A model generated the notes under the pieces. The model made no database searches. It worked only from the letters and a program-made list of their open reading frames with translations, and was not told the origin of the DNA. A DNA stretch of 64,000 nt from Fimicolochytrium jonesii (taxonomy: Eukaryota): assembly GCF_025526975.1 (NCBI RefSeq), contig NW_026515677.1, positions 1 to 64,000 on the forward strand. The letters are read 5' to 3'. Positions 194-35,800 of this stretch are shown piece by piece. Within the stretch, counting starts at the first letter, position 1, and every line of letters starts with the position of its first letter. The translations under genes were made by a program, and so were the position numbers.

Positions 194-1780
194 ATGCCTT
201 TCACCGCATTCACCAACAACACCCTTTCGCCGTCGAGCCTTACCTCATCCATGTCGAACACCAGCCTTCAGGTCGAAATCTCCCAGACCTCATCCAGCAT
301 CGGCAGTTTGGATGTGGAGTTGTCCATTTCTGGTTCAAACGGCTCCAACTTTCATCATCATAGTGATGAGGGGCGTGAGGACATCGAGTTGCCAACTTCT
401 CGCTCAAGCTCTTCACATGAGGAACACCATCGCTCTCCTGCCCTTCAGGATGAGCAGTTTGGGGTCTTCCTCAGTACTGGCTACTTTGATGTGGACTGGA
501 TGGCCTTTACGCTCCCTACCACAAAGCTGACCACCCTCTTTGGTGCCTTCACCTTGGTTGAACTGTCTGGAGTGATGCAGCATATCAAGGACAGTGAAGC
601 TTTCGCCGGTTGGATGCGGATCGCTAGCAGACCTTGTGTCATTAGCATTCCATTCAATCCAGAGTCGAAGGCAAGGATTCTTGAGTTACTTCACAATGAA
701 CATTCGATCATCGTGAGGGAAAGCACGGATCACTCACGATTGATTGCTGGGCGGCAAAATCTGTTGATGTCTGGGTTCCAGGACATCATTGGTGCTGTGT
801 CACCCTCTGTACGCATTGTGCAGTATGGAATGAAGCAACGCATTCAGACTTTGCCAGCCTACTCCTTTGACCAGGAAGTGAGCAACCATCCCGATGCTGC
901 ACTCAACACATGGGACATTGGTCAGACATTCAACACTCGTGGTGTCATTCCTTTGGTTTGCTACAATGGACGTGGAGTTGGAGCCACCTTTCCCATGGTC
1001 ACCATCCTTGGTGAGGGATTTGGGTCCACCAGCTTTGACATTGCGGGTCACGCCAATGTTCGGGTTACTTGCTACCCAAAGCTTGTTCATGCGCTCAAAG
1101 CCTACTCTTCGACTTTGTCTTCGCGAATGCCCCAAACCAAGTCCAGCCTTGGTGATCGCAGTGAGACACTGAGAGGTTTACGTCAATGGCTCAACGGTCA
1201 CCCGCTCCACATTACTGGCATGCGAGTTGAAGTGCGAGTTCAGTGCGCCAGGTTGGAATCAGCGGAACAGATGGTTTTGAATCTCCATTTGGACCAGATC
1301 GAGACCATTTTCCAGCACATGGGCGCAAACTCCTTGAAGCTTGTGCCGGTGGAAGAGTACTACAGTCTCATCAATGGCATCATGGACGCTGCCACCAGAG
1401 TTCTATTCAGAGGAGATCGCAATAGACAGACTACTGTGACAGACTGTCAGCGCTTCCGAGATGTTCTCAACTCTTTTGGTTTCAATCCCGGATGGTTCAA
1501 AGGCATTGCACCCGTCATTGATCCTGCTCGTGCTTGGTGGGGTCATGGGGATGGGGAAGTGCCTGATGCTGCTCCCATTGGCAATATCCGTGAACTCTTC
1601 CATCAGCATCGTGATCAGCTTCAATGTCCCAACTGTGGAGGCTCAGCTTTTCATAGCATTGGCGGTCAGCATCGTTTCCGTCTCCGCTGCACAGGTACCC
1701 TGAGTGCCGTACGACTTTTGGACAGAACCAAGTCCGTGACATGCTTGCGGAAGTCCTTTAGTACTGTTGAATGTCGTTGA
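194..1780 (+). CDS. Intronless hypothetical protein (528 aa) with a C-terminal zinc ribbon; probably carried by a mobile or subtelomeric element
   Basis: Long ORF with TATAAAAG at ~78 and AATAAA at ~1837. The C-terminus reads CPNCGG...RC, and the last Cys pair appears in another frame (..RYPECRTTF), which suggests a 1-nt frameshift near 1692. No family recognised. Confidence 0.6.
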   Translation: MPFTAFTNNTLSPSSLTSSMSNTSLQVEISQTSSSIGSLDVELSISGSNGSNFHHHSDEGREDIELPTSRSSSSHEEHHRSPALQDEQFGVFLSTGYFDVDWMAFTLPTTKLTTLFGAFTLVELSGVMQHIKDSEAFAGWMRIASRPCVISIPFNPESKARILELLHNEHSIIVRESTDHSRLIAGRQNLLMSGFQDIIGAVSPSVRIVQYGMKQRIQTLPAYSFDQEVSNHPDAALNTWDIGQTFNTRGVIPLVCYNGRGVGATFPMVTILGEGFGSTSFDIAGHANVRVTCYPKLVHALKAYSSTLSSRMPQTKSSLGDRSETLRGLRQWLNGHPLHITGMRVEVRVQCARLESAEQMVLNLHLDQIETIFQHMGANSLKLVPVEEYYSLINGIMDAATRVLFRGDRNRQTTVTDCQRFRDVLNSFGFNPGWFKGIAPVIDPARAWWGHGDGEVPDAAPIGNIRELFHQHRDQLQCPNCGGSAFHSIGGQHRFRLRCTGTLSAVRLLDRTKSVTCLRKSFSTVECR

Positions 1781-2797: not shown

Positions 2798-2839
2798 TAA
2801 CCCTAACCCTAACCCTAACCCTAACCCTAACCCTAACCC
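2798..2839. repeat. Interstitial telomeric repeat (TAACCC)7
   Basis: Seven perfect TAACCC units read directly from the sequence. Confidence 0.95.
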
Positions 2840-4717: not shown

Positions 4718-4952
4718 GACGATTAATACAGAAAGAAGAGGATATCCAATTATGACGATTAATACAGAAAGGATATCCTAATACACCGATTAATACACAA
4801 AAGCATATGTTTTCTAACGATTAATATACAGTGAGATTAACAGTGGTTCAGTGCATGTGTATTAATCTGAGATTAATACACATGCACTGAACCACTGACA
4901 TTGACATTGACATTGGCGTTTGACATTTGGCGGTTGACATTGGCGGCTGTCA
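4718..4952. repeat. GATTAATACA direct repeats, a perfect 28-bp-arm palindrome (4841-4897) and GACATT repeats
   Basis: GATTAATA(C/T)A occurs at 4721, 4757, 4788, 4819 and 4871. The palindrome is CAGTGGTTCAGTGCATGTGTATTAATCT-G-AGATTAATACACATGCACTGAACCACTG. Confidence 0.9.
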
Positions 4953-6139
4953 GTAGGTAAGCTTATGGTATGGGCGCGTTGTCCATAACACTAGGGTTCC
5001 TGTAGTTCATTTCCTCACGTGGCTCCCCTCCCGCTTACGCCACGCTTCCGCGTGCGGGACTTCACTCTTTTCTTCCCCTTCGGACCTCGTGTCCTCTTTA
5101 CACTTGAAACTTTTCTACACAAGACAATACATACTTCACAGTACAGCATTGCACACTACATAGAGTTTGCTCAGTCATCTGCTTCCTCTGCTGACTACTG
5201 CTAAGTTTCGCAGCGGCCGCTCAACTGACAGCTTTATCTATGGGCTGCCAGTGGGGCTTGCGTGGCTTCAGTGAGGCTTGGCGCCTTATGTAATGTATCA
5301 CCGAGAGCTCGAGTGGCCAGCCCGGGTCTCGGATCAAGTAGAAGTAAAGAGATGTAATATGAAATACAAGTGAATATGAGATATCCCCGACAGCTCTTCT
5401 CGTACATCAATTTCACATTTTCAAGGACAGCCAAGGAGTCCAGCTCCATCAAGGGTAGAGGGTGAAGAGGAAGTCAGCATAAAACCACTGGTGAGGTTGA
5501 AAGTCCAATGTTCGACGTGTACCTGGCAGCCAAAAGTCCGCGTGCAGTTGGGCGAAATGTACAAGGTATTTGGGCATGACGACCGTGGATAGGGCTGGAA
5601 GGTTTGCTGAGCCCTGGTGAGTTGACCTTACAGACGTCCTGACGGTTTGCTATGTTCCAGATATAGACCTTGTAGAAGCAACTGTGAGGAGCGGAATCCA
5701 AAACTCCTCAACGCGCAACAACACCGCTGAGTAAGCAAGGGGCAAGTTAAATTGCACTGTCACGTGGACTCTCGCCGGTTGAATTGGCTGCATTTTTTCT
5801 TCGTTGCCATCCCTCCCTCCGTCGCTCGCGACAAATCCGGAATTGCCGATATCCAGCGGAATTGCGGGAGTTGACCCACTGCACATGGCAAGTGTTCTTT
5901 TATGGCCTTACTGTATCTGGCCGTTTTTCGCCTTGCTCTGCGCCTTGCTTGTTGCACAACTTGTGCACGTCCGTGCCTCGCCCTCCGCCCTTAGCCGGGA
6001 GAGCGACCGCGATCTGGATGTTGCTTGTGCTGACACTCGCTCTCGCTGTGCTGCTCTGTGCAGTAGCTCTGTCGCTCGCTGCCTCATTGCGCGTCATCAA
6101 TTTAAACCCGCGCCATTGCCGCCGCTCAGTTGCGGCATC

Positions 6140-9100
6140 ATGTCGGCAGCCCCACTCTCACCAGCGGTGACGCACTCGCCTCACCTCACGAGAATGGCGG
6201 CGCCGGCCCCGGCGCCCCCTCAGTACGTCGTGCGCGAGTCTCTTAAGGGAGCGCTGCGCGGACCGCACTATCAAGTTCTACTCGCGCAGCACTACATGCT
6301 CGCACGACTCGAGCAGCTGATGACCCCTCGGTTCGGTGTTCGGCTGGAGGTGAACCTCGCCGGCGCGTGGGATGATGTCGTGTTCGATTTCATCGATGCA
6401 GCAGGCGCCATCACCGAGAGGCACTTCATACAGCAGAAGCACCATAATGTCACCGGCAGCATGGATTGGGCGTTCGTCAAGAACAAGACGGGCATGGAAC
6501 TGTACAAATACTTCGATGACTGGTTCCTCCTGCTCTCGCCCTACTCTCCAGCCACGGTGAAGAAAGCTGCGTTGCCATCTGTACAACCGGGTGGACGCTC
6601 ACTCTGCGTGTTCTGCACGAATGATGTCGCCGGTGCCGATCTGCAGGCAGTCTTTGAACCGGTCTCCACCGCGCACAGTTTCGAACCCATTCCGCTGCTG
6701 AATGGTGAGACACTCTCGCCAGTATATCATCGGCTCAATCTAGAATTTCGATTCCCCGGCAGGACGCGACTATCGCCGCTCGAAGTGCTACGGACGAACA
6801 TCAAGAAGCACTCCCTCTTGATGGATCGCAACAGCGCCATAAACGCCGGCGCGCAAGCACGCCAGAATCCCACCGTGCAAGCGGCGTATGAATATTTCAA
6901 CGGAGGCGGGATTGCGCTGACGGATGTCCAGATGAACGGTTACATCGAGGAGTTTCTTCGCGATCATCTCCTCGTCGCGACGAATCAGCCACACGTCGAC
7001 ACGTTCGATGCCGTGCTCTAGGTGCAGCTTCCTCGTGTCTTCCCTTCCGCTGCGCACACTACGTCGCATATGAATCTGTTGCTATCAGAAACATGGGCAT
7101 GGTTTCGGCAGCTGCAGAATGCGAACGTTTGGACGGAAGTCATTCTGCGCCAGTACGTCTCCTCTATCGCGCAGCAAATCACGACGATGCCACAGGAAAT
7201 CGGCGTCACTCGTGCGCGACTCAACCAAGTCATGACTGAGATGGAAGCACACGTCCGTATCGATCGACCAGGGATTCTGCAATCGTTACGGCAACATCAC
7301 ACGCAAGCTGCGCCAGGGCTGAAATCCAACTGGTATGGCGCATCAGGAGTCGGCAAGTCCTCCCTTGCTGCGGTCCTACTCAGCGAGCTTGTGACGGCAG
7401 GCAAATCGCTCTTCTTCGACACACCGCAGACCTTTTGCGCAGCGACGGGCGTTTTCGGTTCGACGACTCTCATCTGCGTCGACCAAGTCGACACAGCCAC
7501 ACAGGCTGATGTAACTCGACATTGGACCAACAATGCTGTCGGAGCGCATCTGCTGTGCATCTCGGTCGAGGAGCTCTGGCCTGCCGAGCCGAAGCTGCTG
7601 ATCCCACCACTGACGACGGCTGAGGTGGACCAGTACTTGCAGTCCCGCCGGTTGTCGGATCACATGCTGATCTTGTCGAAGATCAGCTTCATGTTGCTTC
7701 AGTCCGGCTTGCCACCTCCGCCAGGCACGCCCGATGCTTCCATCACTGGCCTGCAGCAGCTGATGCGCCTCCCGCGTACGCTGTTGAAGGTGTGCGCCCA
7801 TGCGGTGCCATTCGCGCCGCAGCCCGCCGTCACCGCTGCTGGTGCGTATGCTGCAGCGAAGTCCGCTTCGCGCGTAAGAATCATTCCGCTTCGCGTGAAG
7901 CGGCAAGTGCCGACTTACTCATTCGAAAGTCTTTCGACTCATTCCCGATTCATCGGTGCGAAGATCATTTCGACGACGCAGATTGATGCAGCCCTGCTCC
8001 ACGCTCAGCTCCACGCTCGCAGCCAATATGAACGTCAGATCAGCTCACGTAAGCAGCGAGGGGACGAGTCGTCTCCTCTCGGGCATCTCACGTTCGACGT
8101 CGAACAGCTCGGCTTGGACGTTCCGATCGATACCGCTGTGGACCTACGAACGCTGCTGCAACAAAAATTATCCGAAGCCGATTACGAACGCTTGATGGGG
8201 AAATCTCTTTGGATCATTCTCCTCGACCGCAATGGTATCGCAGCTCACTGGTCTGCTGCTAGGATGCTGCAGTTCTCGCAGTTCAACATGCTGACGCTGA
8301 TCACCACAGCAGAAACGACGTCTCCTGTTGACGGTTGTTGCCACTTCCGGGCAAGTAACGGGGTGTCTGCGCCTGGTGACCGCGTGCTGTTCTATCTGGT
8401 CTCCTCCATGGATCGTTTCGAACGCCTGCCGCTCGGTGACTCGTACTGCGTGCCGAAAGCTGATCAAGTGTGGATCGACGTCGCCTTGCCGGTACTGGCG
8501 ACCGCTGGTGTGACACTGCTGACAGCCGAGGCCGGATCTGGCAAGAGCGTCTCGATGAAGATGATTCACTGGGAGTTCCACCAGAATATCGCACAGCAGA
8601 CAGCGTATACCATCTGCATACTCGTTTCCTTTCGTGAGCTGGCTGCAATCATCTCGCGCTCCGCAACAGGATGTTCTTCTCTCGAGCAGCTGGCATTTCT
8701 GCTGCTACAACTGCCACCCGAACTAAAATGCATGGTGAAGGAAGATCTCGCAAAAGGACGAGTACTCTTCCTGTTGGACGCATGGGACGAGGTTCAGTCG
8801 TCGAGCGAGCGGCAGGCGCTGCAGGAGGTGATGCGACTGCTCCGTGCATACGCACATGTGATGTACTCGTCCCGTCCGATGGCAACGCAACCAATGCAGC
8901 CGAGTGTGACATTCGAGCTGCAGCGATTTTCGGATCCAGACACCGAGGAGTTCATCAAGTCATACTTTAGGTCGGTCGAGGATGTTTCCGACTGGAGCGA
9001 GGGCTGCATTGGTGCCCTTCGCGCTCACCGCAGCAGTCTGCACGAGATCGGTCTGCCGTTGCAGTGCTTCCTCGTATGCGAGGCATGGCAGCCTGCATTC

Positions 9101-11539
9101 GAAGACTGGTGTCAGGACCGTACCTGCACGAAGCCGTGGGATGGTGGTGTCAACCTGGATCGATTATACTTATTCCGCATGTTCATCACCGCTCGGTTCT
9201 AACAGATGCTGTCACTCAGTATCCAGGCCACGGCGTTGACGGACGAGTCGGTTGCCATCTACTCGCGACCGTTCCTTGAGCGCCTGCAGGAAGTCGCAGC
9301 GGGGGTGTTACTCAAATCGCACCTGGCTGCGATCGACCACTCTTCCATCATCGGCTCCAGTATCGCACGGTTGAATGTGCTCCAAGACAGTGGTGAGTTC
9401 ATGCACCAGACGTACGCTGAGTATCTTACGGCGCAGTTCCTGGTCCGCACTCTCCTCATTCGGCCGAGCGACGGGTCTCGTTTAGTGAAAAAACATCGCT
9501 TCCACTCCAGCCTGGCTCTCGTCTTCGAGTTTCTAGCCGCGATGCTGAGCACACAGGAGGGCGACCTCTTCGTACCGGCATCGGCGGATGCTCGCATCAG
9601 CGCGATGCGATCCTTCTGGGAGGCGTTGCTGAGTGAACCGCAGAACTCCGCAGGGAGCGCACGAGAAGTCATGCTGCGGCGATGCTTACTTCGTACTCAC
9701 TTGAACGACGCCTCTGCGATATTTGATGATTCGGCCGTTGCGGTGATGAGGTCGCTGCACGATTCCGTTGCGCCAGTTTCCAGCCACGTGTCAAACGAGG
9801 AGAGCAAGGATGAGGATGAGATGGTTGATGTAGCTGCGGCTGCGGTACCGGCCGGCGCTGCTGCTCAAGTCGACTTTCAGGCGCCGAAGCTGCCCCATCC
9901 ATACGCAGTAATATGGCGCTGCAATATCATCGATTCCGTTGATCTCCGTGTGCTCTCGGCTGCCGGCAAAGTCAAAGCGATGGCATGGCTGGTCAACCTC
10001 TTCGAGCATCATTGTGGATCTTACCGCGTCGCTGAAGCCGTGGCAGACAAGCTGGGTAATCTGGGCATGGCAAGCCCGGCGGTTCTCAAACCATTGGTGA
10101 GTGCAATGGTGCGCGAAGGCTATGGCCACAAGGAGTCCTTTTCAGCACTGGTTGGAATGGGCGTGTCGCTCGAGAAGATACAACAACTCGCTGAGGCTCA
10201 CAATTTCCCGTGGAAGAAGCCACCGGTCGAAACGGTGCTCGCTCAAATCTCTCGAGCAAAGTGGCCCATCTCTATGGTTAAGTGGTTCGCGAGACAATCA
10301 GACAGTGTGCGCCAGCCAGATGCTCTGCTGGGAGCTTTGTTTCGAGGCGCGGAGTTTCCAGTTCAGCCGGACGTGGTGCTCTGCGCGATGCAGTTGCACT
10401 CTCCAGACGACAGCTTCGACCGAAAGTTGCTCGATTGTGCTTCTGATGGCACCACTCCGGTTTCCAGCCGCCTGCTCATCTGGCTGCATCTCCCTCAACA
10501 CGGTCGGCAATCAGATGTGCGACTCACGGCGAGTACTAACGCCTCTGGCATCATCACATCCGATTCTCAGACGGTGCTTTCTGAGCTTCTCTCACGATGT
10601 TGCAATGCGGAGGAGGCAGGCAGAGCCTGCTGTGCTCAAATCGAGTCGTTCTTGTCGATGGTTGAGAACGATGGTGCCCGAACAGCGTGGCTTCCAACGC
10701 TGTTACACATGATCGAAGTCGCGATCAAGGAGCGCTCGTGCAAGGCCCTCATCCCCGTGTTGGTGGAGCACGCAGTCCATCTGCATCCGCCGTTCAGCGA
10801 CACGCGTTCGCTCTGGATGACTGTCTTCAGCCACGAGACCAACTCCCGTGGATCGTTTTGGGACTGCAAAGCCGTTGTGCCAAGCTTTGGTTTCTCCTTT
10901 CCGTACTGGAGTGAGGTCTCCGCAGTCTTCATGGTGTACAAGCTCACCGGCACTTTCTGTGATGATCTTTCTCTCGGCTCCTCGTTCGAGGCTTTCGCTA
11001 CCGCTGCTGAGAGCTTCTCCGAGGATCAGCAGCGATGGGCGATCTGGGCGTGTGCACACGTCATTGAGCATCGGATCAAGAACGGTGATGACGAGCATCG
11101 GGTCCTGCCAGCGTTTCGGCAGTTCGGTTTCAGTCCATTCTCCCCGGCGGTGGTGTGCGAGCAGCTGCTCTCCGATAACCTACCTCGATTCATCTTTCCA
11201 CCTGATGGCGCGCTTGACACCTCCAAGCTCGATACGTGGGCCGAGTTCGCATCGCATCCAGTAGCGTCACCTGAGACCCGAGCGAGGGTGCTGCAGATGT
11301 ATCTCGAGCAGTCGTCACGCGTGTTGTCCTTTCCACCGGACGAGGAAGGCACGTTGATCGTACATCTCGATACTCGAGATATGCCCCTGCAAACGACGCC
11401 AGATATGCGAACCATCGTCCGCGCTGCAACGTCCGGCCCGGCGCCGCTGACTCAGCTGCAGTTTCGGAATTCCTCCGCAGTCGGATCATCCAGGCCACCA
11501 GCCATCAGTGTCGCGGATGTCTACACTCCGGCTCTGTAA
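6140..11539 (+). pseudogene. PD-(D/E)XK (Cap4/Mrr-like) nuclease + P-loop NTPase + NACHT + helical-repeat protein (Avs/NLR-like), interrupted by two in-frame stops
   Basis: ORFs 5804-7021, 7022-9202 and 9206-11539 share one frame and are separated only by TAG (7019-21) and TAA (9200-02). Motifs: GPHYQ...WDDVV...FIQQKH; Walker A GASGVGKS (~7337) and AEAGSGKS (~8525); Walker B LFLLDAWDE; winged-helix motif FMHQTYAEYLTA. Start codon uncertain (6140 or 6194). Confidence 0.75.
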
Positions 11540-12010: not shown

Positions 12011-13573
12011 CTAACGCTCCATGGTCTTGTACGTCACAATAGGTCTTAATCTCGCTACCACGTCTACATACGGGCGCAAGTCCTCAATGACGGCGTCGAT
12101 GTCTTTGTAACACTCTGGCGCTTCCTCCAACAGAAGCGTTTTGTCCATGCAGATGACGGTGCTGCCAAGTTTCGTGGTGGTGAGGTCGGATTTCGGGTTG
12201 ATTTTGTGGTGTGATTGAGTGCGCGCGACGGCTCGGCCGGCTCCATGGGCGAGCGAAAAGCCTGTATATGAAGGAAGTGAGTTATATCTGGCAGCAATCA
12301 AGCAGGTGAGGATTCTTGGCAATCTGGGTTGCGACGTACCGTTTGGAGTATGGTCGAGATCTTTCGGCATGACCACATAACTGTACGCGCCTCGACTGCC
12401 TGGTATCACCACCGGCTGACCTGGGACCGCAGGAGCTGCACCCTTCCGATGCACCCACCCCCTCTCTGCCGCCATCTCCGCGCTCGTAACCGAGTTATGA
12501 AAAATATCCACCAGCTTTTCGACCGTATCGGCAAGACCTAACGGGTCCAACAGTCGCGTTGCAATGAGCTCCCGATTCCGCTGGGCCCATGTACAAGCTT
12601 GATCGTGTTGGCGAATATACTCGTTGAACTGTTGCGGATCGGTGGCGGAATTCAGGACGGGAGGCGCGGCTTCTAGAATAGCTTTCCCGTAGCTTCGCGA
12701 TCCGGAGTGGATTAGGAGGTAGGCTACCGATGAGGATATCTGCATTCGAGTGGCGTGATCGGTGTCAAGGATCTCGTCCACGACGAGAAACTCTGCGAAG
12801 TGGTTGCCTTTGCCAATCGTCCCAAGTGTCTGTGAATGCGCGGCAGAGTCTTCGAACAGATTTGGTGGGTTCTCCATCGGCCCGTCGATGTTGATGAGTT
12901 GTTTTGCGAGTAAGCTGGGCGTTTCTATACGTTTTGAGGTCGATAAGAGAGATGGAAGTTTAAAGAGGCTCATTCCGCAGCCGATGTCAGAGCCGATCAA
13001 TTTGGGGTAGATCGCTTCGGTAGATGTGATGAAGACGCAGCCGACGGGGGAACTGTTGCCTAGATGGAGGTCTGGCATGCCCTAGAATTGAAAGCAAACG
13101 ACATGCCAAAGATTAGCTCGTTGACCCATGCATGTCAGCGAGCAATCGGCCACACGTACCACAGCCATGTTGATATAAGGACATCGTTCCACCGTCAGGT
13201 ACAGCTGCTTGATGGCATCATTCTCCACCGCAGAGTGTTCCGCAATAACGCTCACGTTCGGTCTAGTCCTCTCATCCGTCTCCCCGGCCGTACTCGTCTG
13301 CCCAACAAACTGCTGCCCTTTCCCGCACACAACAATCTCCTTTTCACGCTTATTGTCCGTCCGGAGGTATCCGGCGATTCCGTCCTCGTCAGTCAGTTCC
13401 GCGCCGGTGTGCAGGACAATCAGCCGGTCAGGGTTTTTTATACGCAACTTTGTTTTTGCGCCATGATGGAGCTGTGTTGCCAGCGCCGTGCTACTTCCGC
13501 TAGACTGAAGCAAGAGCACCGTGCGTTTGCGACGGTCAGTGTTGTCGATAATGGTGACTCGAATGGAAGGCAT
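12011..13573 (-). CDS. rtcB: RtcB-family RNA ligase (RtcB2/release-factor-H-coupled type) with an N-terminal extension; 2 introns
   Basis: Motifs MPDLH, GSDIGCG, GTIGKGNHFAE, HSGSR, HN, HRKGA, IPGSRG, SLAHGAGR, EEAPECYKDI and LRPIVTYK. Introns at 13082-13159 (GTACGT..TTCTAG) and ~12263-12339. Confidence 0.9.
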
Positions 13574-14382
13574 AGTGGTGAATTTCTGCGACGTTTTCCG
13601 GACTGGACGACGAGTACCTTATATATGCATAAACTTCTCGGCAATAAACTCTCGGTGGCGGTCGGTTTGCTTACAGGTAACAGGCTATGTTCTTGGTGAT
13701 TGCCGGTGGGCAAGCTGCTTATCCACCACTGGGATATTCGCTCTCGCAGCTTTTACCCCTGCACATCCCCCTACAGTATGCCTTACATATTTCACCTTCG
13801 TCGGCGGCGGACGAGACGTTCGTGCACCGTCGCGTGTGACCGCTTGTCCTGAACATCAATCTCCTTTAGTGGAGTACGTAGCTTCAGTTTTTCCATGATA
13901 CTGTACAGTATGTTCGCCGAAAAAAGGAGGTCCGCGTGAACCCCGATCTGCGTATGCCGACACTGGCTATATATATCTACATAGAGTGACGCTAAGCAGC
14001 GACCCTTACAAGTACTTCTCAGAAGGCCGGTACATAGACAGTTGTCACATGTCACGGTTGCCGCTTTCCCAACGCTTCTCACGATGCTCTCGGAGTTCGG
14101 GGACTGTCACGCCCAATTCTCAGACAGGACGGCTGATCGCGACCCTATCTGCGCAAATCGAGGAAGAGCGCTCGGGAAGAAACAAGACTCATGAGGAAGC
14201 ATCATCGAGGGAGCAAGAAGCGTACGTTCGCTGGGACCGACAGGCTCTGTTGCTCTAGACAACGATTGAAGTGCTATTATGTAGCTATGTACAGTACATA
14301 ATCCGGATCCACAACGTTTCCGGACGTCACCCTTCCTGATTCAATCCCCATATATAAAAGCACATGACAGGGAGTGGGGGGA

Positions 14383-14655: not shown

Positions 14656-16714
14656 ATGAGTCAGCGGCGCTCACTGTTTACATCTCCATTGCGTTCGGTA
14701 GCTCTACTAGCCTTCGCAGTAGCGATCACTTTCCTCCTCGCAGGGGCCAGAGCAACCAAGACAGAGAACCCGGGCAGTAACAAATTAGGGCCTATCATCG
14801 GTATTGACTTGGGGACGACATATAGGTAGGGTTCACTTTTTCTGTGTTCTATTTTGACACACAGGCTAACTGCGCTATGCCCCCAGTTGTGTCGGTGTCC
14901 ACAAAAATGGACGGGTTGAAATCATTGCCAACGAACAGGGCAATCGCATAACCCCATCCTACGTCGCATTCACCGATACTGAGCGACTCGTCGGAGATGC
15001 TGCAAAGAACCAAGCGCCAGCCAATCCTTTCAATACAATTTTCGATGCGAAGCGTCTGATCGGTCGCCACTTCAATGACAAGGAGGTCGAGGAGGATGCA
15101 AAACATTGGCCCTTCAAGCTCGTCAACAAAGACCAACGGCCCCGTGTTCAAGTCGAGGTCAAGGGCGAAAAGAAGGTCTTCAGCGCAGAGGAGGTGTCTG
15201 CCATGCTCCTGACCAAGATGAAGACCATAGCGGAAGAGTATCTCGGCCGCAACGTTACACGCGCAGTCGTCACGGTCCCTGCGTACTTCAACGATGCGCA
15301 GCGTCAAGCCACTCAAGATGCGGGTGTCATAGCTGGCCTCGACATCGTCCGGATTGTGAACGAACCGACAGCCGCCGCTCTAGCATACGGGTTGAACAGA
15401 AAGGGTGGCGAACAACATGTCTTAGTTTACGATCTGGGTGGCGGGACCTTTGATGTGTCCTTGTTGGCCATCGACGACGGGATCTTCGAAGTCTTGGCCA
15501 CCAGCGGTGACACGCACTTGGGCGGTGAAGATTTTGACAATCGCCTCATCCGCCACTTCTCGTCCTTATGGAAAGAAAAGACTGGTAAAGACTGCAACAA
15601 AGACGCGAAGGCCATGGGCAAACTGAAGCGCGAGGTGGAGAAAGCTAAGCGTACGTTGTCCACCGCAATGTCCGCCCGTGTCGAAATTGAATCGTTTCAA
15701 GACGGCCGTGACCTTTCGGAGACGCTGACCCGCGCCAAGTTCGAAGAGTTGAATCTGGATCTTTTCAAGAAGACCATGAAGCCCCTCAAGAAGGTTCTCA
15801 AAGATGCTGCGATATCGAAAGCCAAAGTGGACGAGATTGTGCTTGTCGGAGGGTCTACTCGTATCCCCAAGATTCGAGAGCTACTCGAAGATTTTTTTGG
15901 CGGAAAGAAAGCAAGCCAGGGGATCAATCCCGATGAAGCGGTCGCGTACGGAGCCGCCATCCAAGCTGCCATTCTTGATGAACGAGTCGACGATTACGAC
16001 TCGATACTTCTCGTCGATGTCGTACCTCTGAGCTTTGGTATCGAGACCTCTGGCGGAGTCATGACCAAGCTGATTCCTCGTAACACCCCGATTCCTACCA
16101 CGAGGTCTCAAACCTTTTCTACCACCGCTGACAATCAACAATCTGTTCTCATTCAAGTCTACGAGGGGGAGCGTCTGATGACGAAGGATAACAACGTTCT
16201 CGGCAAATTTGATCTTACCGGTATCCCAGGAGCCCCACGCGGTGTCCCCCAGATCGAAGTATCTTTCACAGTGGACGCCAATGGTATCTTGGAGGTCTCA
16301 GCGGTCGAAAAAGGAAGCGGAAAGATGGAGTCAATCACCATCAAGAACGAGCAAGGTCGTCTTTCCGAGGCAGACATTGAACGTATGATTCTGGACGCAG
16401 AGAGATTGGCGGAGGAAGATGCCACGCTGAAGAAACAGATTGAGGCCCGCAACAGGTTCGATTCGTACCTTTACTCAGTGAAGGACCGGGTCAACAAGGA
16501 ATCGGAACTCGACGATGTGGACAAGCAAAAAGTTGTCGTTGCGGTCAGGGAAGCACAAGACTGGTTGGAATCTGAAGGCTCAAACGCAGTCGAGGAGGAT
16601 ATACAGGAACGCGAATCAGAACTCGAAGCAGTGGTTGCCTCTATCATGGCAAGACTTAACACTAGCACCACCTCTAGCGGTCGTGAGCAGTCTTCTTATC
16701 ACGATGAGTTGTAA
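14656..16714 (+). CDS. KAR2: ER-lumenal Hsp70 (BiP/Kar2 family); 1 intron (14826-14886)
   Basis: Signal peptide, [37 protein letters not shown] and C-terminal HDEL. Confidence 0.95.
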
Positions 16715-16744
16715 CAAGAATAGATAGGGTTAGGGTTAGAGATG

Positions 16745-17162
16745 GGTTGCTTGTCCGGGGACGGCCAATCTTTACCTGAATATAGATGAAGTAGTCAAAA
16801 TCACAATACTCCTCATGGTACCCTCCGATGTAGAGCTCTGTGCCTTGAGGCAAGGTGCCGATGCAGGAAGTCTCCACGTCCTGCTCCAGGACGGTCCTAC
16901 TCCTGCCATATCGATGGAAGCTCCACACCGGATGCCGCCAAGTATCCTCGTAGTGTCCGCCTACATGATGTTTTTGCGCATGGTAGCTCTTCCAGCCGTT
17001 CTTGATCACCTCGATATGAAACGGGGTGGTAATATTTTCAGGGCTTTCTTTGATCGCGTTGTGCTTTGCGTAAGCTGTTCGATAGGAGTTCAACAAATTG
17101 ATTATTCTCCAACAACTCTTGAATTCCACGCGCCCGGCGGAGAGCGAGCCTGGCGCGTTCAC
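16745..17162 (-). pseudogene. Fragment of a conserved hypothetical fungal/bacterial protein (IGGxHE..DxDxxIY motif)
   Basis: WSFHRYGR...TLPQGTELYIGGYHEEYCDFDYFIY; appears truncated and abuts the BiP 3' end. Confidence 0.4.
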
Positions 17163-17185
17163 AATTTCCTCGGTCCTCCAAACTA

Positions 17186-17245
17186 TGACGATATTCCCAA
17201 CCGGCTGACAACTTGAGATCCGCCAGCCGGTTGGGAATATCGTCA
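17186..17245. repeat. Perfect inverted repeat with 22-bp arms and a 16-nt spacer
   Basis: TGACGATATTCCCAACCGGCTG (17186-17207) pairs with CAGCCGGTTGGGAATATCGTCA (17224-17245). Confidence 0.9.
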
Positions 17246-17249
17246 GAGA

Positions 17250-18420
17250 CCGAGAGACCGTACTCCATACGGCCCTGCTCGTCTACCGCACGAAGGGCCG
17301 CAATCCATTGATGAAACGTTAGACCGAATACACGCTCAGCAATCTCTCTTATGCGCTCCTTCACGTTAGTGGAGTCCAAATGGAACTGCAATGAGAAGTC
17401 GTCGCTTTGGGCGAATTGAGGCGATTCGTCAGGAGTGTGGAGAACAAATGCCCAGGTAGCCGCATTGGACACTATTCCGACGACAGAAGGGATATTGCGG
17501 TTGTCCACGCGATTCATCATGACAGCGGCTGTAGTGGAGCACAACTTCAATCAGATATACCTTTCCAAATGACGCCGCCGAGGACGAACACTCACCAGAA
17601 CAAGCTGCGCTAAACCCTTCTCGTAATTATCCTGCTTACATTCCACGATTTTCAGCACGATTTCGTCCATGAACTTTACGACAAACTCGACCCGACCTCC
17701 TGAGAGGGTGCCTTCGACTTTGATTTCGACGCTGAAACCAAGGAGACCCAAAAATTCTTTCAATAGCTGTAACACCGGATGAGCGTCCAGTATGGAGAAA
17801 GTATTGCGACAGTAGATGCATTACCTCGAACTCGAAAAATTCCGCTTCGCTTGCTTGCCTTGCCGCATGTCTCCCAACACGAGAAGGGCGGTTTGTAGGT
17901 TATATTCAATGCGGGCAATGACCACGTCGGGGAGTGGCAGTCGTTCGGGACCATAGTGCGGTAACGTCTTTGGCAAGCTAAACGCCTTGCGTACTGTCAG
18001 CCAATTCCAGTCCGAAAAAGACTTGCCCACTTTATCTGGTAGTCGGGTCAAGTCAGTATATACGTCGGAAAGTTTCTGACACGGCTACCGAAAGGTTACC
18101 TTTGAGAGCGTCCGATAGACCGTGGTGGACTTTCGTATACCTTAACACTTCCGCAAAATGGGTCGCCTTTCCCGTCAAAGTCCCTCACGACCTTCACTAA
18201 CGCCTCTTCCTCTTGCGTCAACAGAAGCCGTTTACGCTTCATACCACCTTGTGTACTAACCCGTACGGTTGGGGTAGCAGCGGGACGGGGAATGTTTGAG
18301 GGACGACCAGAGGCGGTGGAGCGAGCCGGGGGAGAGCTGCCTGATGGAGGAGGAATGCTTCCTTCTGGGGGGGAGAGGTCTTGTTTGTCCTCTGAAGTTT
18401 GGCGCAGGATGCAAGTGGAA
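17250..18420 (-). CDS. Intron-containing PD-(D/E)XK-like protein (type common in Crinkler-like fungal families); possibly degenerate
   Basis: Exon-like pieces GRVEFVV...IVECKQDNYEKGLAQL and VVGIVSNAATWAFV. Boundaries approximate. Confidence 0.55.
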
Positions 18421-18626: not shown

Positions 18627-18990
18627 ATGGGCATCGACGCAGTGGACGACGCCTTCCTCCTGGACGTCTTGGAAGCATACTCGACCGCCGCTTACGAAAA
18701 CGAACTGCGGCTTGGGAACCTTAGGCTGGTATCTCGCCGCTGGAACGGGCTCGTCCAATGGCTGCAACGTAGCTTCGAGAAACGGTCTCTTGCTGTCGGC
18801 ATTTGCGAAGCCGTGGACTTGGCTGCTATCGCGCAGAAGCAAGGCCGTGTTCCCCCCAACGTTCTTCGAAAGCTCACCATCAACCGCGATTGCGAACACG
18901 AAAAAGGAACATGTTCCGCTTCCGAGCCTGACGTTTACGATAGGGTTCTGCGGCAGGTTCCTAAACTCATCCCGAAGCAATTGCAGACAT
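18627..18990 (+). pseudogene. F-box-like gene fragment running into the Fanzor 5' region
   Basis: ..FLLDVLEAY..LGNLRLVSRRWNGLV resembles an F-box motif. Confidence 0.3.
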
Positions 18991-21592
18991 GGTTAGCGAG
19001 AGCTCCGGCGATGAAGACGGGCGGCACCAGCAGCGAGGGCTTTCACCCGTGGACAGGGGTCTGCAGCGCCCACTGAACCTCCCCGCGCCCATCCCTTTCC
19101 GTTTTCCCAGCACACCGGGTGGATCCCTGGTGTATGAGCCCCCGCCACCACCACCAGTTCAACGACCCCGCCCGCAGACGCATGCCAGCACGAAGGTTTC
19201 CCTTCACCGAATCGATAATCACAATCAAGTTCAAAGGGAGCGCCTGACAACGTTCATCGGCAATGTTCACGTCCTTGCGCGCCACACCACCTTCTTTCTC
19301 AAGTACTACCTTGGTGAGTTTTTGAGGTACACTGTATATTTCCCATAATATTTCCCATAACAATGTCCTGACTACCACGTCTGCCCACCACAGCTGATCA
19401 TCCTCTACACGGTTTCCCGGACATCACCGACAAGCACATCAGTGTGATATTCTGCAATGTCACGGATTCGCCCCCATACGCATGCGATATTGCCAACAGA
19501 CCGCAGCGTACACAGCTCAGAGCATCTTCACCAACCTCAAAGTTAACGTACAAGAGCATTTTATGCAAATGTTTCTGGGCTACGTTAACGAAAGGATTGG
19601 TTTGAAGCGAGTCGTACTGCATCTCCATAGAGCCAGAGCCAACCGAGCGCAGCGGAGACAGTATTATCAGCGGGTCCATCAATTTACAAAATTTGCGACG
19701 TTTGAAGAGTTTCCAACCGAAGAAGAGTTTGCGCGCCTCACACGACTTGAGCGGACTGTCCTCGACGAGCTATGGGCTCTGTTTCCTCCCCAGGATGAGC
19801 CGCTTGCGTACAGCCTTGCGGTGGACGCAATGCCATATTTAGGTGAGTTAGTATATTTCCAGCAACCCCTGCTTCCTCTTTTGTCTAATCATGGTCCGCA
19901 CCTGCCTCGCTTCATCACAGGTGCCTATTGTGAGCTCTCACGCCTCTATGAGCGCCGTGGAATGTGGCTGTTTTCCGCTATCCCGCTGCGCAAATCTCGT
20001 ATCCAGTCATCTGTTCGGATCGACACGCTGATCCTAGCCATTCATATCCTGGGTTTGAGCCAACGTCGCATGGGGAAATTCACCGATGAACGCAAGCGGG
20101 AGCTGTGGGGGCAGTTTCTCAATGTGAATGTAACTTAAGTCTGTATCCTTTTGCGCCTATTTCAATCACCTCGCTGAATGACGGATTGCAGGACAAAGTC
20201 TTCAAGCATCGAAAGAAGCTTGGTCTTAAATTTAATGGATCAATCAGCACAAACGGGTATTCCGCTACCATCCACTTCAAGAAGCCAGGGCTCAAGTATA
20301 GGCATCGGGCCCGGAAGCGCAGAAAGGCCCAAATGCGGGAAGAAGTCAAGCAGCTGTATTTTGAGCATCACATCGCCGAACTACGGGAGGATCCAAACAT
20401 CGTCAGGATTGATCCGGGCAAGAGTGACCTCTTGTTCTGTCGAGACATCAAGAAGGAGCGGCCATTTCGGTACGTTTCAGTTGATTACTACTGCCCCGCT
20501 GTTGCCGCTATCCCCGCTGTCGCCGCTATCCCCGCTATCCCCGCTATCCCCGCTATCCCCGCTATCCCGGCTGTCCCCGCTGTCGCCGCTGTCCCCGCTG
20601 TCCCCGCTGTCGCCGCTGTCCCCGCCCCCGCCATCCCAATCGGCGCCCTCCTCAACCCTGTCCTTGTCCCACCATCCCCCCCCTCCCCGTCCCCACCATC
20701 TGTTGCTGCGTTCTCACAATGCACCACCCCATACCAGATACACATCCAATCAACGGGCGGTCGAGACAAAGTCTCGGTACTTTCAAAGAGACATGACAGA
20801 GCAAAAGATCAATGCCGGCATCGCTGAGATGGAATCGCGTATTCCGTCGTACAAGAGCATGAACATCGAGGAGTTCTCAGCGTTCATTGTGGATTACGAA
20901 CATGCGGGTATGATGTATCATGCATCGTCTTCAAATTTGGTAATACATGGGCTGACATCCATCCATATCCCAGATCCCGCCCTGGACGAGTTTTACCAGG
21001 ATGAGATTCACGTGGCTCGCAGATTCAAGGCGTTCTCACTGCGGCAAAAGTCTGAGAGCAAGCTCATCAAGAACATGCGACGCCTGTATGGAAAGCATTT
21101 TTCGGTCATTTTGGGTGATTGGAGCGACGCTGGAAAAACCATGCGCTTTCAGGAGTCATCAAAGACCAAAGGGTGAGTGACCATCATTGTTTTTTATGTA
21201 TTTTGATATGCTAACTCATCATCATGGAAATCAGATTCCGCACACTCTTTGCAAGAAACAGCATTCCATGCTACTTGCTAGATGAGTATCGAACGTCTTC
21301 CGTGTGCCCAGACTGCCACGGGCGTGTGAAGAAAAACATCCGACGCCGGCTGTCGTCTCGGCTGTGGCAAGCTAGAAAGGGAAGAATGGAATTCGTCCAT
21401 GGATTGGTGGGTTGCCCCAACCCCGAATGTATCAACCAAGACTGGACGCCATTTGAGATTCCTGGGAGACAACCACTACGGATGAAAGTGCACAATCGGG
21501 ACGTCCTAAGCACCAAGACTTTCCTCTCGATTGTGCGCTCGGTGGTGTTTGGCAATGGCCGCCGACCAGACGCATTCTCCCGTAACCGGTAG
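18989..21592 (+). mobile_element. Fanzor1 (eukaryotic TnpB-derived RNA-guided RuvC nuclease) gene with 6 introns; probable frameshift near 19450
   Basis: RuvC-I RIDPG (D at 20411), RYTSNQR, ILGDWS, RuvC-II LLDEYRTSSVCPDC (E at 21284), VHGLVGCPNPEC and RuvC-III NRD (D at 21500). Introns 19314-19393, 19843-19920, 20130-20191, 20470-20737, 20908-20973 and 21173-21234; the last five splice in frame. Confidence 0.88.
20494..20625. repeat. 9-bp minisatellite (CCCGCTATC/CCCGCTGTC) inside Fanzor intron 4
   Basis: About 14 tandem units read directly. Confidence 0.9.
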
Positions 21593-21730
21593 TCTAGATT
21601 TCACCCCATCCCATTTTCCATGGTGGTTATCTGCCATCCACATCATTGTACCTCTGCCTGAGGCGTCGCCGATGATGGGAACTTGTAAATGGGAAGCTTG
21701 GATCTCAGCACAACTTCCAACACTAACTAC
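21593..21730 (+). ncRNA. Candidate Fanzor omegaRNA scaffold (plus possible guide)
   Basis: Nested stems directly after the stop codon: 21596-601/21700-05, TCCCATTT 21609-16/AAATGGGA 21687-94, 21620-26/21631-37 and CATCATTG 21641-48/CGATGATG 21670-77. Confidence 0.45.
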
Positions 21731-32803: not shown

Positions 32804-35800
32804 ATGGACAACAGTAAGAAGATCGCCGTTGTAGGCATGAGTTGGTTAGTACATGAATGTGTCAGATGTCTAAGCGTTGGCCAACTGATCTCTCGCTCTC
32901 GGCTTTCTGCGCTTCTTCCCTTCATAGCCGCTTCGCAGGAGTTGAAGGCGTCGATGAGTTCTGGGAGGCTATCTCCCAAGGCATGGATATGATCACCGAG
33001 GTGAGCTCATCGTGCCAACCTCGATCCGCCACGCCATCGTCGCTTGTTGACCATTTGCCTAACCATCCCACATCCCCAGATTCCTGCCTCCCGCTTCGAC
33101 TACACCCACCACTTCTCCGCCACCCGCACCGACCCCAACACCTTGAGTACTTCCGTTGGCGGTTTCCTCAAGCATGGCGAAGATTTCGACCCCCGTTTCT
33201 TCAAAATGAGCCCTCGCGAGGCCGCCGAGACCGACCCGCAGCAGCGCGTCGTGCTCGAGGTTGCGTATGAGGCTTTGGACAGTGCGGGATATGTGGCGGA
33301 CAAGACGCCGGCGATGATGAGGAAGAGTTTTGGGGCTTATGTTGGTGTTACCAATTGTGATTATGCGGCGGTGAGTTCGGTTTCGTCCTCGGATGTGCAG
33401 GTCGTTGCAAGGCAACGATAATCCAAGTCGTCGCTAATACTTCTTCCACCGCAGAACTCCCACAGCGGCATCGGCCCTTACTACACGACGGGAACCGGCA
33501 AATCCTTCGTGAGCACCCGCATCAGCCACGCATTCGGTTGGTCCGGTCCGAGCATCACTGTTGACACCGCAGGCTCGTCGGGCCTCGTCGCCATCCATCA
33601 AGCTTGTCAAGCCATCATTCATGGGGATTGCAAGGCCGCTGTTGCGGGAGGGGTGAACATGATCACGAGCCCGCACATGTACGTGGGTCTTTCCCGCGCC
33701 TCGATGCTCTCCGCGACTGGAGGGTCCAAGCCGTTTGATGCAGCTGCCGACGGGTACTGTCGCGGCGAGGGATGTGGGATTGTTGTACTTAAACGATTGA
33801 GTGATGCCATCGCCGACCGTGACAATGTAAGTTTCGATGATAGTATGCACCACGAGTGCAACCAACATCACTATTGTGGACCTGCTTACTCATACATCAT
33901 CGCTCCATACCCGACAGATCATCGGCGTCCTCACCGGTAGCGCCGTCAATCAAAGCGGTCCGGCGAGCTCGATCACGTCCCCGCACGCCGAGACGCAAAA
34001 AGATCTTCTCGACACCGTGATGGCCAAAGCGGGCGTGCGCACACAACACGTTACGTACGTTGAGGCTCATGGTGGCGCAACCCAAACCGGCGATGCAGCC
34101 GAGATGGCTGCGCTCCAGCAGGTGTTCGGTGTGAACCGAATGCATGACAATCCGCTCTATGTGGCGTCGGTTAAGCCGAACGTTGGACATGCGGAGTCGG
34201 TAAGTGGATTCCTTTACGCCAAGTGCGTAAGCGCCGGGTTCATGGTTTCTGATATCTCTCATCCGCACATTAGGCCTCGGGACCCGCCTCCTTCATCAAA
34301 GTACTGCTCATGATGCAGCACCGTGCCATTCCTCCGCATATCCATCTACACAACTTGAATCCCGAGATCGACCACTTGAAGACATTCAACATGGTTATCC
34401 CGAAAAAGCTGACTCCGTGGGTTTCTTCCACATCCCGAACTGCCGTCGTCAACAACTACGGTGTTGGCGGATCGAACTGCAGCGTGGTTATCGAGTCTTT
34501 CGACAACACGCAGCAGCGTCAGCAGGACTCTTGTGGGCCGGCCGTCCACGTCCTCACGTTGTCTGCAAAGAGTACAACGTCGCTGCAGAACCTGCGCAGC
34601 CGATACTGCAAGTTCCTGAAGAGCGCTAGGCAGGACATCAGCGATATTGCATACACGGCCTCAGCGAGGAGGAACCACTACGGATATCGCCTGGCGGTGA
34701 CGGGCTCGAGCCCTGATGCGCTTCTGGCGGCGTTGGAAGCTCCTAATTGTGACACTGCGGCCTTTAGGAACCAGGTTCGTGCTTCACGTTTTGTTTGCAT
34801 CGCTCTGTTCTCGAAACTGATCCTTAGTGCCCCAACCCTCTCATATTCAGCCGCGTAAGATCGTATTCGTCTTCCCTGACCAGGAATGCTTCTATCTCAA
34901 CATGTGCAAGGAGCTGTACACAACTTTTTCGACGTTTCGCAACGCGTTCAATGAATGTGACGCCTTGATTCAAAAGGAACAGGGATGCTCGATCCACGAT
35001 GTTGTCTTTGCATGCCACTCTCCGTCGCTTAGCCTGCAGGACACCCAGCTGGCTGTCTTCGCGGTGCAGTATGGTCTCGCTAAGATGTGGTCGAGCATGG
35101 GCGTCCGTCCTGAGGTAAGTTGGAGTGCTGGTATCTGTAATTGGAAAGCGCCGCACCTCCTAAAACTTGGATTCTAGTTTGTACTCGGGCACGGCCTCGG
35201 TGAATATGTCGCAGCTGTCGTAGCGGGCTGTATCACCGTCAAGAGTGCCGTCCATCTTATTATCGCTCGCTGTAGCCTTTTGGAGCGGATGCACTACCAC
35301 AAGCACATGTTGACCATCAGTGATTCAGCTTCGCACGTCAAGACGCTGATCCACTCGGCGTTTCCAAACATCTGTTCCTCCACTGTTCCTGAGATCGCAT
35401 GCCAAAACTCGCCCGAAGATGTCGTCGTCGCGGGCGAAACGGCCCATCTCCGCGTGCTGGAAGAGAAGTGCAAGACAAGGGGCATTGCCACCAAATGGTC
35501 AGATGTCGCCTTTCCGTTCAACTCGCGCTTCGTTGAGCCTATGCTGGATGAGTTCCGATGTGTAGCGGCAAAGATCGAATATCGCGCGCCTACCATTGCA
35601 TTCATGTCGAACGTGACCGGCGGAAGAGTGGCAACCTTGGACGCCGACTACTTCTGCGACCAGATGCGCAAGGTCGTTCGTTTTGAGCAAGCTGTGGATT
35701 CCATCCTGGATGCTAATGCCGAGCAACCCCCTGTCTTTATTGAGATGGGTCCGTCTGGTTTCCTTCCAATGATCAAGAAGATTGCCGCGGCTCGCGGTTC

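What the first reader, a model, noticed from the sequence alone, without database searches (positions are those of the whole stretch)
18989..21592. Intron-rich Fanzor1 RNA-guided nuclease with an intact RuvC triad
Seen: RuvC D (IDPG), E (DEYRTS) and D (NRD) plus the CxxC...CxxxxC zinc finger are present, along with a basic NLS-like stretch (RHRARKRRK) and six spliceosomal introns. No transposase was recognised nearby. Established: Fanzor1 proteins are eukaryotic TnpB-derived programmable nucleases, characterised from chytrids among others. Inference: this is a member of a Fanzor family in this genome, either non-autonomous or partly domesticated.
Basis: partly seen in the sequence, partly recalled or inferred. 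Interest (0 to 1): 0.75.

Follow-up and report, generated by a model that had tools for sequence, protein, structure and literature searches.

The report
Broken six-intron Fanzor copy in chytrid
This is one of at least 24 copies of a fungal Fanzor1 gene (a known family of RNA-guided DNA cutters): it keeps its three cutting residues and six predicted introns, but it has lost its front end and has a deletion and a frameshift early in the gene, so it is likely a dead transposon copy.

Summary
The gene is a real Fanzor1 close to SpuFz1. Four exon blocks hit PDB 8GKH at E 1e-12 to 1e-30. The D-E-D triad and the zinc finger are present, and the six introns hold up.

The copy is not intact:
- Exon 2 lacks a 25-codon REC block and one more base, so family-type splicing stops after 178 codons (TGA 19603-19605).
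- About 65 N-terminal codons are missing, including the family's PRRKRRKV basic motif.
- Conserved residues have changed (SpuFz1 N612, R387, P569).
- The 'NLS-like' RHRARKRRK is a WED loop; two of its arginines occur only in this copy.

The public 524-aa model of this locus starts after the frameshift. It is one of 24 Fimicolochytrium jonesii models on 16 contigs; one of the 23 checked keeps all eight motifs. A weakly supported omegaRNA-like fold follows the stop codon. I found no left end or transposase. Domestication is not supported.

The family is of modest interest: six intron positions absent from four metagenomic relatives, and an altered TAM-reading loop. This scan already reported the family at three other loci of this genome. 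Verdict: a decayed copy of a new member of a known kind.

The parts
18627..19076 (+). Upstream F-box-like ORF (149 aa). Its last 106 nt (18971-19076) overlap the Fanzor remnant in another frame; there is no in-frame fusion.
   Evidence: Pfam F-box E=0.073, below cut-off; Atlas lead 0.89; no homologs at E<=0.001 among longer proteins
18971..19313 (+). Exon 1 remnant. Family homology begins at 18971 (PEAIADM). ATG 18989 matches Met71 of paralog P0031. It encodes WED-I (THASTK = SpuFz1 H21/T22/K25) and the first REC helix. About 65 family N-terminal codons, with PRRKRRKV, are absent, and there is an in-frame TAA just upstream.
   Evidence: tblastn of paralogs; 9 models carry the longer N-terminus; only proline-rich noise hits elsewhere in the window
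19314..19393 (+). Intron 1 (80 nt, GTGAGT...CACAG, phase 1; after SpuFz1 residue 64)
   Evidence: junction YYL|ADHPLH in 9 of 22 paralog models
19394..19842 (+). Exon 2, broken: 25 codons missing between 19452 and 19453, one base missing at 19460/19461, and a premature TGA at 19603-19605 in the frame carried from exon 1. The public model restarts at ATG 19482.
   Evidence: P0033 identical to the window from 19482
19843..19920 (+). Intron 2 (78 nt, phase 1; after SpuFz1 243)
   Evidence: gap against SpuFz1
19921..20129 (+). Exon 3 (REC/WED)
   Evidence: 8GKH E=1.7e-30 for exons 2-3
20130..20191 (+). Intron 3 (62 nt, GTAACT...TGCAG, phase 0; after SpuFz1 310)
20192..20469 (+). Exon 4: WED-II, the basic loop RHRARKRRK (20300-20326), RuvC-I Asp (20411-20413), and a private R>S at the SpuFz1 R387 position (20423-20425)
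   Evidence: 8GKH E=3.1e-12
20470..20737 (+). Intron 4 (268 nt, phase 2; after SpuFz1 400). It holds a 9-bp tandem repeat (20494-20625, 14.7 copies), and its 3' part is shared with paralog P0010.
   Evidence: P0010 matches 20702-20788 at 90%
20738..20907 (+). Exon 5 (RuvC, bridge-helix region)
   Evidence: 8GKH E=1e-26 for exons 5-6
20908..20973 (+). Intron 5 (66 nt, phase 1; after SpuFz1 457)
   Evidence: 22-aa insertion against SpuFz1
20974..21172 (+). Exon 6 (RuvC with the lid region)
21173..21234 (+). Intron 6 (62 nt, phase 2; after SpuFz1 523)
21235..21592 (+). Exon 7: RuvC-II Glu (21284-21286), CxxC (21305-21316), CxxxxC (21413-21430), RuvC-III Asp (21500-21502), private P>L (SpuFz1 P569) and N>T (N612, 21518-21520), stop TAG 21590-21592
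   Evidence: 8GKH E=1.2e-27, 9CF0 E=5e-8
21613..21687 (+). Candidate omegaRNA scaffold and transposon right end: TTTTCC 21 nt after the stop, stem-loop 1 (about 21621-21638), a long stem 2 (about 21638-21680), and TA at scaffold positions 74-75. The predicted guide would be 21688-21702. Support is weak.
   Evidence: fold z about -1 to -2; 7 of 15 positions named for the SpuFz1 scaffold match in register, as do 5.5% of 1266 TCC anchors; a similar TTTTCC plus hairpin lies 14 nt after the stop in L001

Best explanation
This is a 5'-truncated, frameshifted copy of a six-intron Fanzor1 gene from a many-copy, likely Spu-1-like non-autonomous DNA transposon family of a spizellomycetalean chytrid, and it is likely dead as a nuclease. 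Intact copies would work like SpuFz1 (inferred from homology): a spliced mRNA makes a roughly 760-aa protein with an N-terminal basic NLS-like motif; the protein loads an omegaRNA made from the element's right end plus about 15 nt of flank; it cuts TAM-adjacent DNA at empty donor sites, which helps the element persist; a transposase acting in trans moves the element. This copy then lost its left end and about 65 N-terminal codons (shown), a 25-codon REC block and one base in exon 2 (shown), and gained 15 private substitutions (shown). Family-type splicing would therefore give a 178-aa fragment with no RuvC domain. The copies carry their introns, so they likely spread as DNA rather than through mRNA.
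For: (1) Exon blocks hit SpuFz1 at E 1.2e-27, 1e-26, 1.7e-30 and 3.1e-12. (2) The spliced frame from ATG 19482 is identical to public model P0033. There are 23 other F. jonesii models, with 24 in all on 16 contigs; most are 82-93% identical to P0033. (3) The stop falls after 178 aa when the acceptor used by 9 paralog models is taken. (4) The missing block is present in 13 of 14 spanning paralog models and in 88 of 90 full-length relatives. In SpuFz1 it holds TAM-reading R96 (PMC10432273 section 10, read). (5) The position of N612 is N in 85 of 90 full-length relatives and 15 of 15 close ones, but T here. R387 is R in 15 of 15 close relatives, S here. P569 is P in 14 of 15, L here. (6) Mis-spliced paralog models read into introns that match this copy's: P0010 into intron 4, P0004 and P0009 into intron 5, P0009 into intron 1. 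(7) No transposase in the ORFs scanned; Spu-1 also has none (PMC10432273).
Against: All three catalytic residues, four zinc cysteines and every splice site of introns 2-6 are intact, and 524 codons stay open after Met 19482. An AAG acceptor at 19434 would restore a 648-aa frame, though it drops about 50 conserved REC residues and lies 41 nt from the nearest branch-like site. The private-change rate (2.9%) is within the paralog range (0.3-4.8%), so point changes alone do not single this copy out. The one-base loss could be an assembly error; no reads could be laid to check it. That would not explain the 75-nt deletion or the missing 5' end. Element ends, TSD and TIR were not defined.
Confidence: 0.85

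Rival explanations
1. The protein is dead, but the locus still serves as a guide donor, like a Spu-1 'ghost'. Read-through from the upstream F-box-like promoter would make the right-end omegaRNA, which intact paralogs load in trans.
For: An omegaRNA-like fold and TA lie in register after the stop. Ghost omegaRNAs work with SpuFz1 (PMC10432273 passages). At least one paralog model (P0031) is complete.
Against: Fold z-scores are only about -1 to -2, and the register match is reached by 5.5% of anchors. The base that pairs with C6 in SpuFz1 (G20) is T here. The element's own 5' region, which likely held the promoter, is gone. This explanation is compatible with the best one rather than excluding it.
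Confidence: 0.2
2. The locus expresses the N-terminally shortened 524-aa protein (from Met 19482, as annotated) or the 648-aa cryptic-acceptor form. It would keep RNA-binding RuvC/TNB surfaces but lack the TAM clamp, acting as a decoy or an altered nuclease.
For: The frame is open from 19482 to 21592 with the D-E-D triad, and the public annotation calls this protein.
Against: It would lack WED-I (H21/T22/K25 equivalents) and the first REC helices. It carries N612T, R387S, P569L and R157G, and has no N-terminal basic motif. An upstream ATG at 18989 opens a frame that ends at 19605. The annotation is a prediction.
Confidence: 0.08
3. An intact or domesticated Fanzor host gene, as the first reader left open.
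For: Six well-formed introns and intact catalytic motifs.
Against: Three independent lesions. The introns are shared by the whole multi-copy family, so they do not mark this locus as domesticated. No ortholog outside this species exceeds 55% identity.
Confidence: 0.04

Closest known systems
SpuFz1 / Spu-1 elements of Spizellomyces punctatus (PDB 8GKH, 9CEU-9CEZ; PMC3627910, PMC10432273, PMC11423790)
   Same: 45.5% identity over 525 columns (P0033 vs P0018). Same domain order, D383/E541/D606 equivalents, zinc finger, Q129/Q130/Y345/W570 equivalents. Multi-copy, with many partial copies and no transposase in cis.
   Different: SPu-1 is a single ORF with 30-33-bp TIRs. This family has six introns, DPG instead of DPN (N385), a shorter REC loop without the R96 arginine, A at N133, and a long Pro-rich N-terminal insert. 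This copy is broken, and no TIR pair was found.
Public F. jonesii models P0033 (XP_052925825.1, this locus), P0031 (XP_052925929.1, 761 aa) and 22 further paralogs, all 'uncharacterized protein'
   Same: P0033 is identical to the window's exons from ATG 19482. P0031 is 88.6% identical to it.
   Different: P0031 keeps the N-terminal PRRKRRKV, the WED-I strand, the REC block and R387/P569/N612. None of the models is named as a Fanzor.
Gaertneriomyces sp. JEL0708 HDU85_005947 (P0011)
   Same: Closest relative outside the species, 54.5% identity, full-length 637 aa
   Different: Keeps DPN, has H at N133 and an Arg in the REC loop; its gene structure was not seen.
Intron-containing Fanzors of Jiang et al. 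2023 (PMC10530073), e.g. Chlamydomonas CrFNuc
   Same: Fanzor genes with spliceosomal introns (up to about 9.6 per kb reported) and N-terminal NLSs are already described.
   Different: This family (about 3 introns per kb of coding sequence) is not named in the passages read; its carrier element is unknown.

Membership tests
Fanzor1 | Homology to Fanzor1 over REC, WED, RuvC and TNB | tested here: met
   8GKH hits for four blocks; exon 1 weak, E=0.079; Foldseek top 7 are all Fanzor1 structures, but the model is low-confidence (pLDDT 51, TM about 0.3)
Fanzor1 | RuvC D-E-D triad with the shifted RuvC-II Glu just before the zinc finger | tested here: met
   D/E/D at SpuFz1 383/541/606
Fanzor1 | CxxC...CxxxxC zinc finger (TNB) | tested here: met
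   C548/C551/C586/C591 equivalents
Fanzor1 | Eukaryotic host gene context | tested here: met
   spliceosomal introns; identical to a chytrid model; BiP/HDEL, PKS and GST neighbours
Functional Fanzor1 nuclease (this copy) | One continuous reading frame with complete WED-I and REC lobe | tested here: not met
   stop after 178 aa; 25-codon REC deletion; about 65 N-terminal codons absent
Functional Fanzor1 nuclease (this copy) | TAM-reading REC loop arginine (SpuFz1 R96), conserved in GtFz1, SpuFz1 and PpFz1 | tested here: not met
   loop deleted in this copy; in the paralogs it is short and has no R/K; feature from the PMC11423790 Fig. 3 legend
Functional Fanzor1 nuclease (this copy) | omegaRNA at the right end | tested here: inconclusive
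   candidate 21613-21687; z -1 to -2; register match 7 of 15, background 5.5%; no meaningful Rfam hit
Functional Fanzor1 nuclease (this copy) | RNA-guided, TAM-dependent DNA cleavage | not testable with these tools
   needs an assay
Spu-1-like non-autonomous element | About 30-bp TIRs with TA TSD | tested here: inconclusive
   no upstream inverted partner above chance: best 22 of 30 at 5585, reached or exceeded by 7 of 105 control segments. The left end is expected to be lost.
Spu-1-like non-autonomous element | Many dispersed copies, no transposase in cis | tested here: met
   24 models on 16 contigs; no transposase domain in the window ORFs scanned
Domesticated transposon gene | Single or low copy, intact frame, syntenic orthologs | tested here: not met
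   multi-copy and broken; synteny could not be tested

The most novel reading that the evidence does not exclude
The F. jonesii family is a Fanzor1 transposon that gained six introns of its own and lost the TAM-gripping arginine loop and N133. Its intact copies (such as P0031) may read a different or relaxed TAM, and broken copies like this one may persist as ghost-like donors of guide RNAs that intact copies use in trans.
Probability: 0.15. Interest if true: 0.55.

Novelty: new member of a known kind. Interest (0 to 1): 0.18.

Why it matters
This copy matters little: it is a decayed transposon gene, and it shows that an intact catalytic triad does not make an intact nuclease. The family has modest value. 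It is an unnamed Fanzor1 lineage about 45% identical to the best-studied Fanzor, has a natural complete member to test, and has a changed TAM-reading surface that could give a new targeting range. Its six intron positions are absent from four metagenomic relatives, while SpuFz1 has no introns, so it is a clean case for studying intron gain in a DNA transposon's cargo gene.

Tried and rejected
- Whole genome: none is held for this window, so paralog DNA, element ends, TSD and ghosts could not be examined.
- Sequencing runs: none was listed, so splicing and the one-base loss are unchecked by reads.
- Cryptic AAG acceptor at 19434: it restores a frame, but I judged it unlikely because paralogs use the 19393 junction.
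- Missing N-terminus and missing 25-aa block: searched across the window at very low stringency; only low-complexity noise was found. The middle of that output was cut.
- Candidate TIR partner at 5585-5614 (22 of 30): rejected, as 7 of 105 controls reach it.
- No second copy of the right-end motif in the window. Rfam gave only a chance snoRNA hit, E=0.53.
- A pairwise DNA alignment of the 3' regions of the window and L001 was uninformative.
- The AlphaFold model was poor (pLDDT 51) and was not used for geometry.
- The local Pfam copy names neither P0033, P0031 nor SpuFz1. Homologs carry a precomputed PF26935 whose name was not shown.
- F-box/Fanzor fusion: rejected, the two are in different frames.
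- TET-like partner reported at other copies: no Tet_JBP hit in the flanking ORFs; split exons could be missed.
- The sigma-70 promoter scan is not meaningful for a fungus.
- Literature: 'Fimicolochytrium'+'Fanzor' gave 1 paper, unrelated to this family. 'Fanzor'+'TAM'+'chytrid' from 2024 gave 0. 'Fanzor'+'pseudogene' gave 3 unrelated listings. No 'Fimicolochytrium' in the supplements of PMC10432273 (9 files; 1 picture PDF not searchable) or PMC10530073 (2 files). The latter also lack 'Spizellomyces', so that blank is weak. The Yoon et al. preprint's main text has no occurrence; its supplements were not seen and may list this family.

Full report
1. What is in the sequence. The three-frame translation and splice signals give seven exons between 18989 and 21592 on the + strand. 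The introns are 19314-19393, 19843-19920, 20130-20191, 20470-20737, 20908-20973 and 21173-21234. IDPG, DEYRTS, CPDC...CPNPEC and NRD are present. Exon blocks searched against solved structures hit SpuFz1 (8GKH) at E=1.7e-30 (exons 2-3), 3.1e-12 (exon 4), 1e-26 (exons 5-6) and 1.2e-27 (exon 7). Exon 1 hits weakly (E=0.079). Introns 2 and 5 appear as clean insertions against SpuFz1. The catalytic residues map to D383, E541 and D606. So the Fanzor1 identity and the six predicted introns stand; no RNA reads could be laid.

2. The family. Homolog searches and cluster listing returned 24 'uncharacterized' Fimicolochytrium jonesii models on 16 contigs. They also returned one Gaertneriomyces protein (54.5%), S. 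punctatus Fanzors (about 45%) and a Geranomyces fragment. One model, P0033 (524 aa), is identical to this window's spliced exons from ATG 19482. Of the 23 models checked, only P0031 (761 aa) keeps all eight motifs, and P0032 keeps seven. This is a lower bound on intact copies, since many models are visibly mis-spliced. Those mis-spliced models are informative. P0010 reads into intron 4 (90% over 29 aa to 20702-20788), P0004 and P0009 into intron 5, and P0009 into intron 1. The introns therefore travel with the copies, which points to DNA-level spread (inference).

3. This copy is broken in three places.
(a) The 5' end is missing. Homology starts at 18971. Nine paralog models begin about 65 codons earlier and carry PRRKRRKV, which aligns with the N-terminal PPKKKQKL of SpuFz1. 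Those codons are not elsewhere in the window. Upstream lies an unrelated, weakly F-box-like ORF.
(b) After the intron 1 acceptor at 19393, used by 9 of 22 paralog models, the window reads ...KHISVIF then CNV. Thirteen of the 14 other models spanning this region have a block between these (25 codons in the 12 that span it whole). The equivalent SpuFz1 stretch (85-113) is occupied in 88 of 90 full-length relatives (90 of 147 hits were kept by length, 560-800 aa).
(c) Three codons later one base is missing (19460/19461), so the frame shifts and stops at 19603-19605 after 178 aa. A cryptic AAG at 19434 would give an open 648-aa frame, but it would drop about 50 conserved REC residues.

4. Point changes. 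Fifteen residues of P0033 occur in no aligned paralog (my notebook's '16' was a miscount). The rate, 2.9%, lies in the upper part of the paralog range (0.3-4.8%). Several changes fall on conserved sites: N612 (N in 85 of 90 relatives and 15 of 15 close ones) is T; R387 (R in 15 of 15 close ones but only 32 of 90 overall, with S in 19) is S; P569 (14 of 15) is L; R157 is G, a site that varies among relatives. In SpuFz1, R387 and R157 contact the omegaRNA (PMC10432273 section 10, read). The 'NLS-like' RHRARKRRK sits in the WED loop beside Y345, the DNA-unwinding residue. All 19 aligned paralogs have G and S where this copy has two of its arginines, so its basic look is partly a product of this copy's mutations. 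The better NLS candidate is the lost N-terminal motif (inference; N-terminal Fanzor NLSs are shown in PMC10530073, passages read).

5. Right end. TTTTCC lies 21 nt after the stop, followed by a hairpin and a long second stem. Anchored on U5-C6-C7 of the SpuFz1 scaffold, 7 of 15 other bases named in the paper match, and TA falls at positions 74-75 (21686-21687). However, 5.5% of 1266 TCC anchors in the window do as well, and folding z-scores are about -1 to -2 (-0.38 for the wider 151 nt). Metagenomic relative L001 has TTTTCC plus a hairpin 14 nt after its stop, though only 3 of 15 bases match in register there. This is a plausible but unproven omegaRNA. No left-end partner exceeds chance, and no transposase domain was found.

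6. Family-level features. The complete paralogs have a short REC loop without the arginine that grips the TAM groove in GtFz1, SpuFz1 and PpFz1 (PMC11423790 figure legend). They have A at N133 and G at N385. A changed TAM is likely; its direction is unknown. The six introns follow SpuFz1 residues 64, 243, 310, 400, 457 and 523. Of the 12 metagenomic loci, I examined L001, L003, L004 and L005 (L002 repeats L001; the other seven are distant or fragmentary). Their introns lie elsewhere, near 161-163, 533 and 583, and none falls at these six sites. SPu-1 is a single ORF (PMC3627910 passage; PMC10432273 section 7). Lineage-specific intron gain is the simplest reading (inference). Intron-bearing Fanzors as such are already published (PMC10530073).

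7. Mechanism. Shown: homology, motifs, splice signals, three lesions and copy number. Inferred from SpuFz1: intact copies make an omegaRNA-loaded nuclease that cuts empty donor sites, and the element is moved by a transposase in trans. Inferred: this copy is dead as a protein (0.85). A shortened protein (0.08) or a domesticated gene (0.04) is unlikely.

8. What I saw of each paper. PMC10432273: sections 7 and 10, passages, and a supplement search. PMC3627910, PMC10530073, PMC11423790 and PMC12247965: passages, plus a supplement search for PMC10530073. bioRxiv 2023.08.09.552727: a term search of the main text, no hits. The label 'Crinkler-like' in the side notes is recalled, not from a call.

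9. Verdict. A new member of a known kind, represented here by a decayed copy. The scan has already described the family at three other loci of this genome. Interest 0.18.

Noticed in passing
window 16674-18250, minus strand: A nuclease-like gene in several stop- or frame-separated pieces, head-to-head with the Fanzor remnant. One piece scores 0.96 to unnamed eukaryotic clusters; the nearest named cluster carries PDDEXK_12 (29% of members). Its motifs recall Crinkler-type PD-(D/E)XK domains (recalled). No Pfam hit.
   Followed up: partly
window 17183-17248: A 25-bp inverted repeat, 96% complementary, 16-nt loop, inside that gene
   Followed up: no
window 5783-11539 (+): Three consecutive same-frame ORFs separated by single stops (about 1,900 codons) with a NACHT domain (E=1.5e-11); an NLR-like gene broken or split by introns
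   Followed up: no
window 12011-13618 (-): RtcB tRNA ligase gene (PF01139, E=4e-62). That RtcB is patchy in fungi is recalled, not checked.
   Followed up: no
window 14870-16714 (+): Hsp70 in one 614-codon frame ending in HDEL (BiP-like)
   Followed up: no
window 33422-40822 (+): PKS gene (KS, AT, DH, two ACP, methyltransferase) followed by a condensation domain; a likely PKS-NRPS hybrid
   Followed up: no
window 2798-2839 and 4841-4946: An interstitial (TAACCC)7 repeat, and a near-perfect 57-nt palindrome followed by TGACAT repeats, in a low-GC stretch
   Followed up: no
window 83-1780 (+): A 565-codon open frame without a Pfam hit, with a CxxC motif near the end
   Followed up: no
window 55582-57086 (-): S1/P1 nuclease gene with a PT-repeat tail
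   Followed up: no
protein P0022 (another contig): A public model joins a tyrosine-recombinase-like N-terminus (Phage_integrase E=5.6e-4, below cut-off) to a Fanzor fragment. It is either a nested DIRS/Crypton-type insertion or a lead to the mobilising enzyme.
   Followed up: partly
L001:3114-3188, L003:385-616, L004:716-790, L005:496-555: Four metagenomic SpuFz1-like genes (35-41% identity) share an intron near SpuFz1 residue 161-163 that is absent from this family
   Followed up: partly
window 21609-21616 and 21687-21694: An 8-bp inverted match closes the predicted fold and covers the start of the predicted guide. It may be chance, or it may mean the scaffold is longer than assumed.
   Followed up: partly
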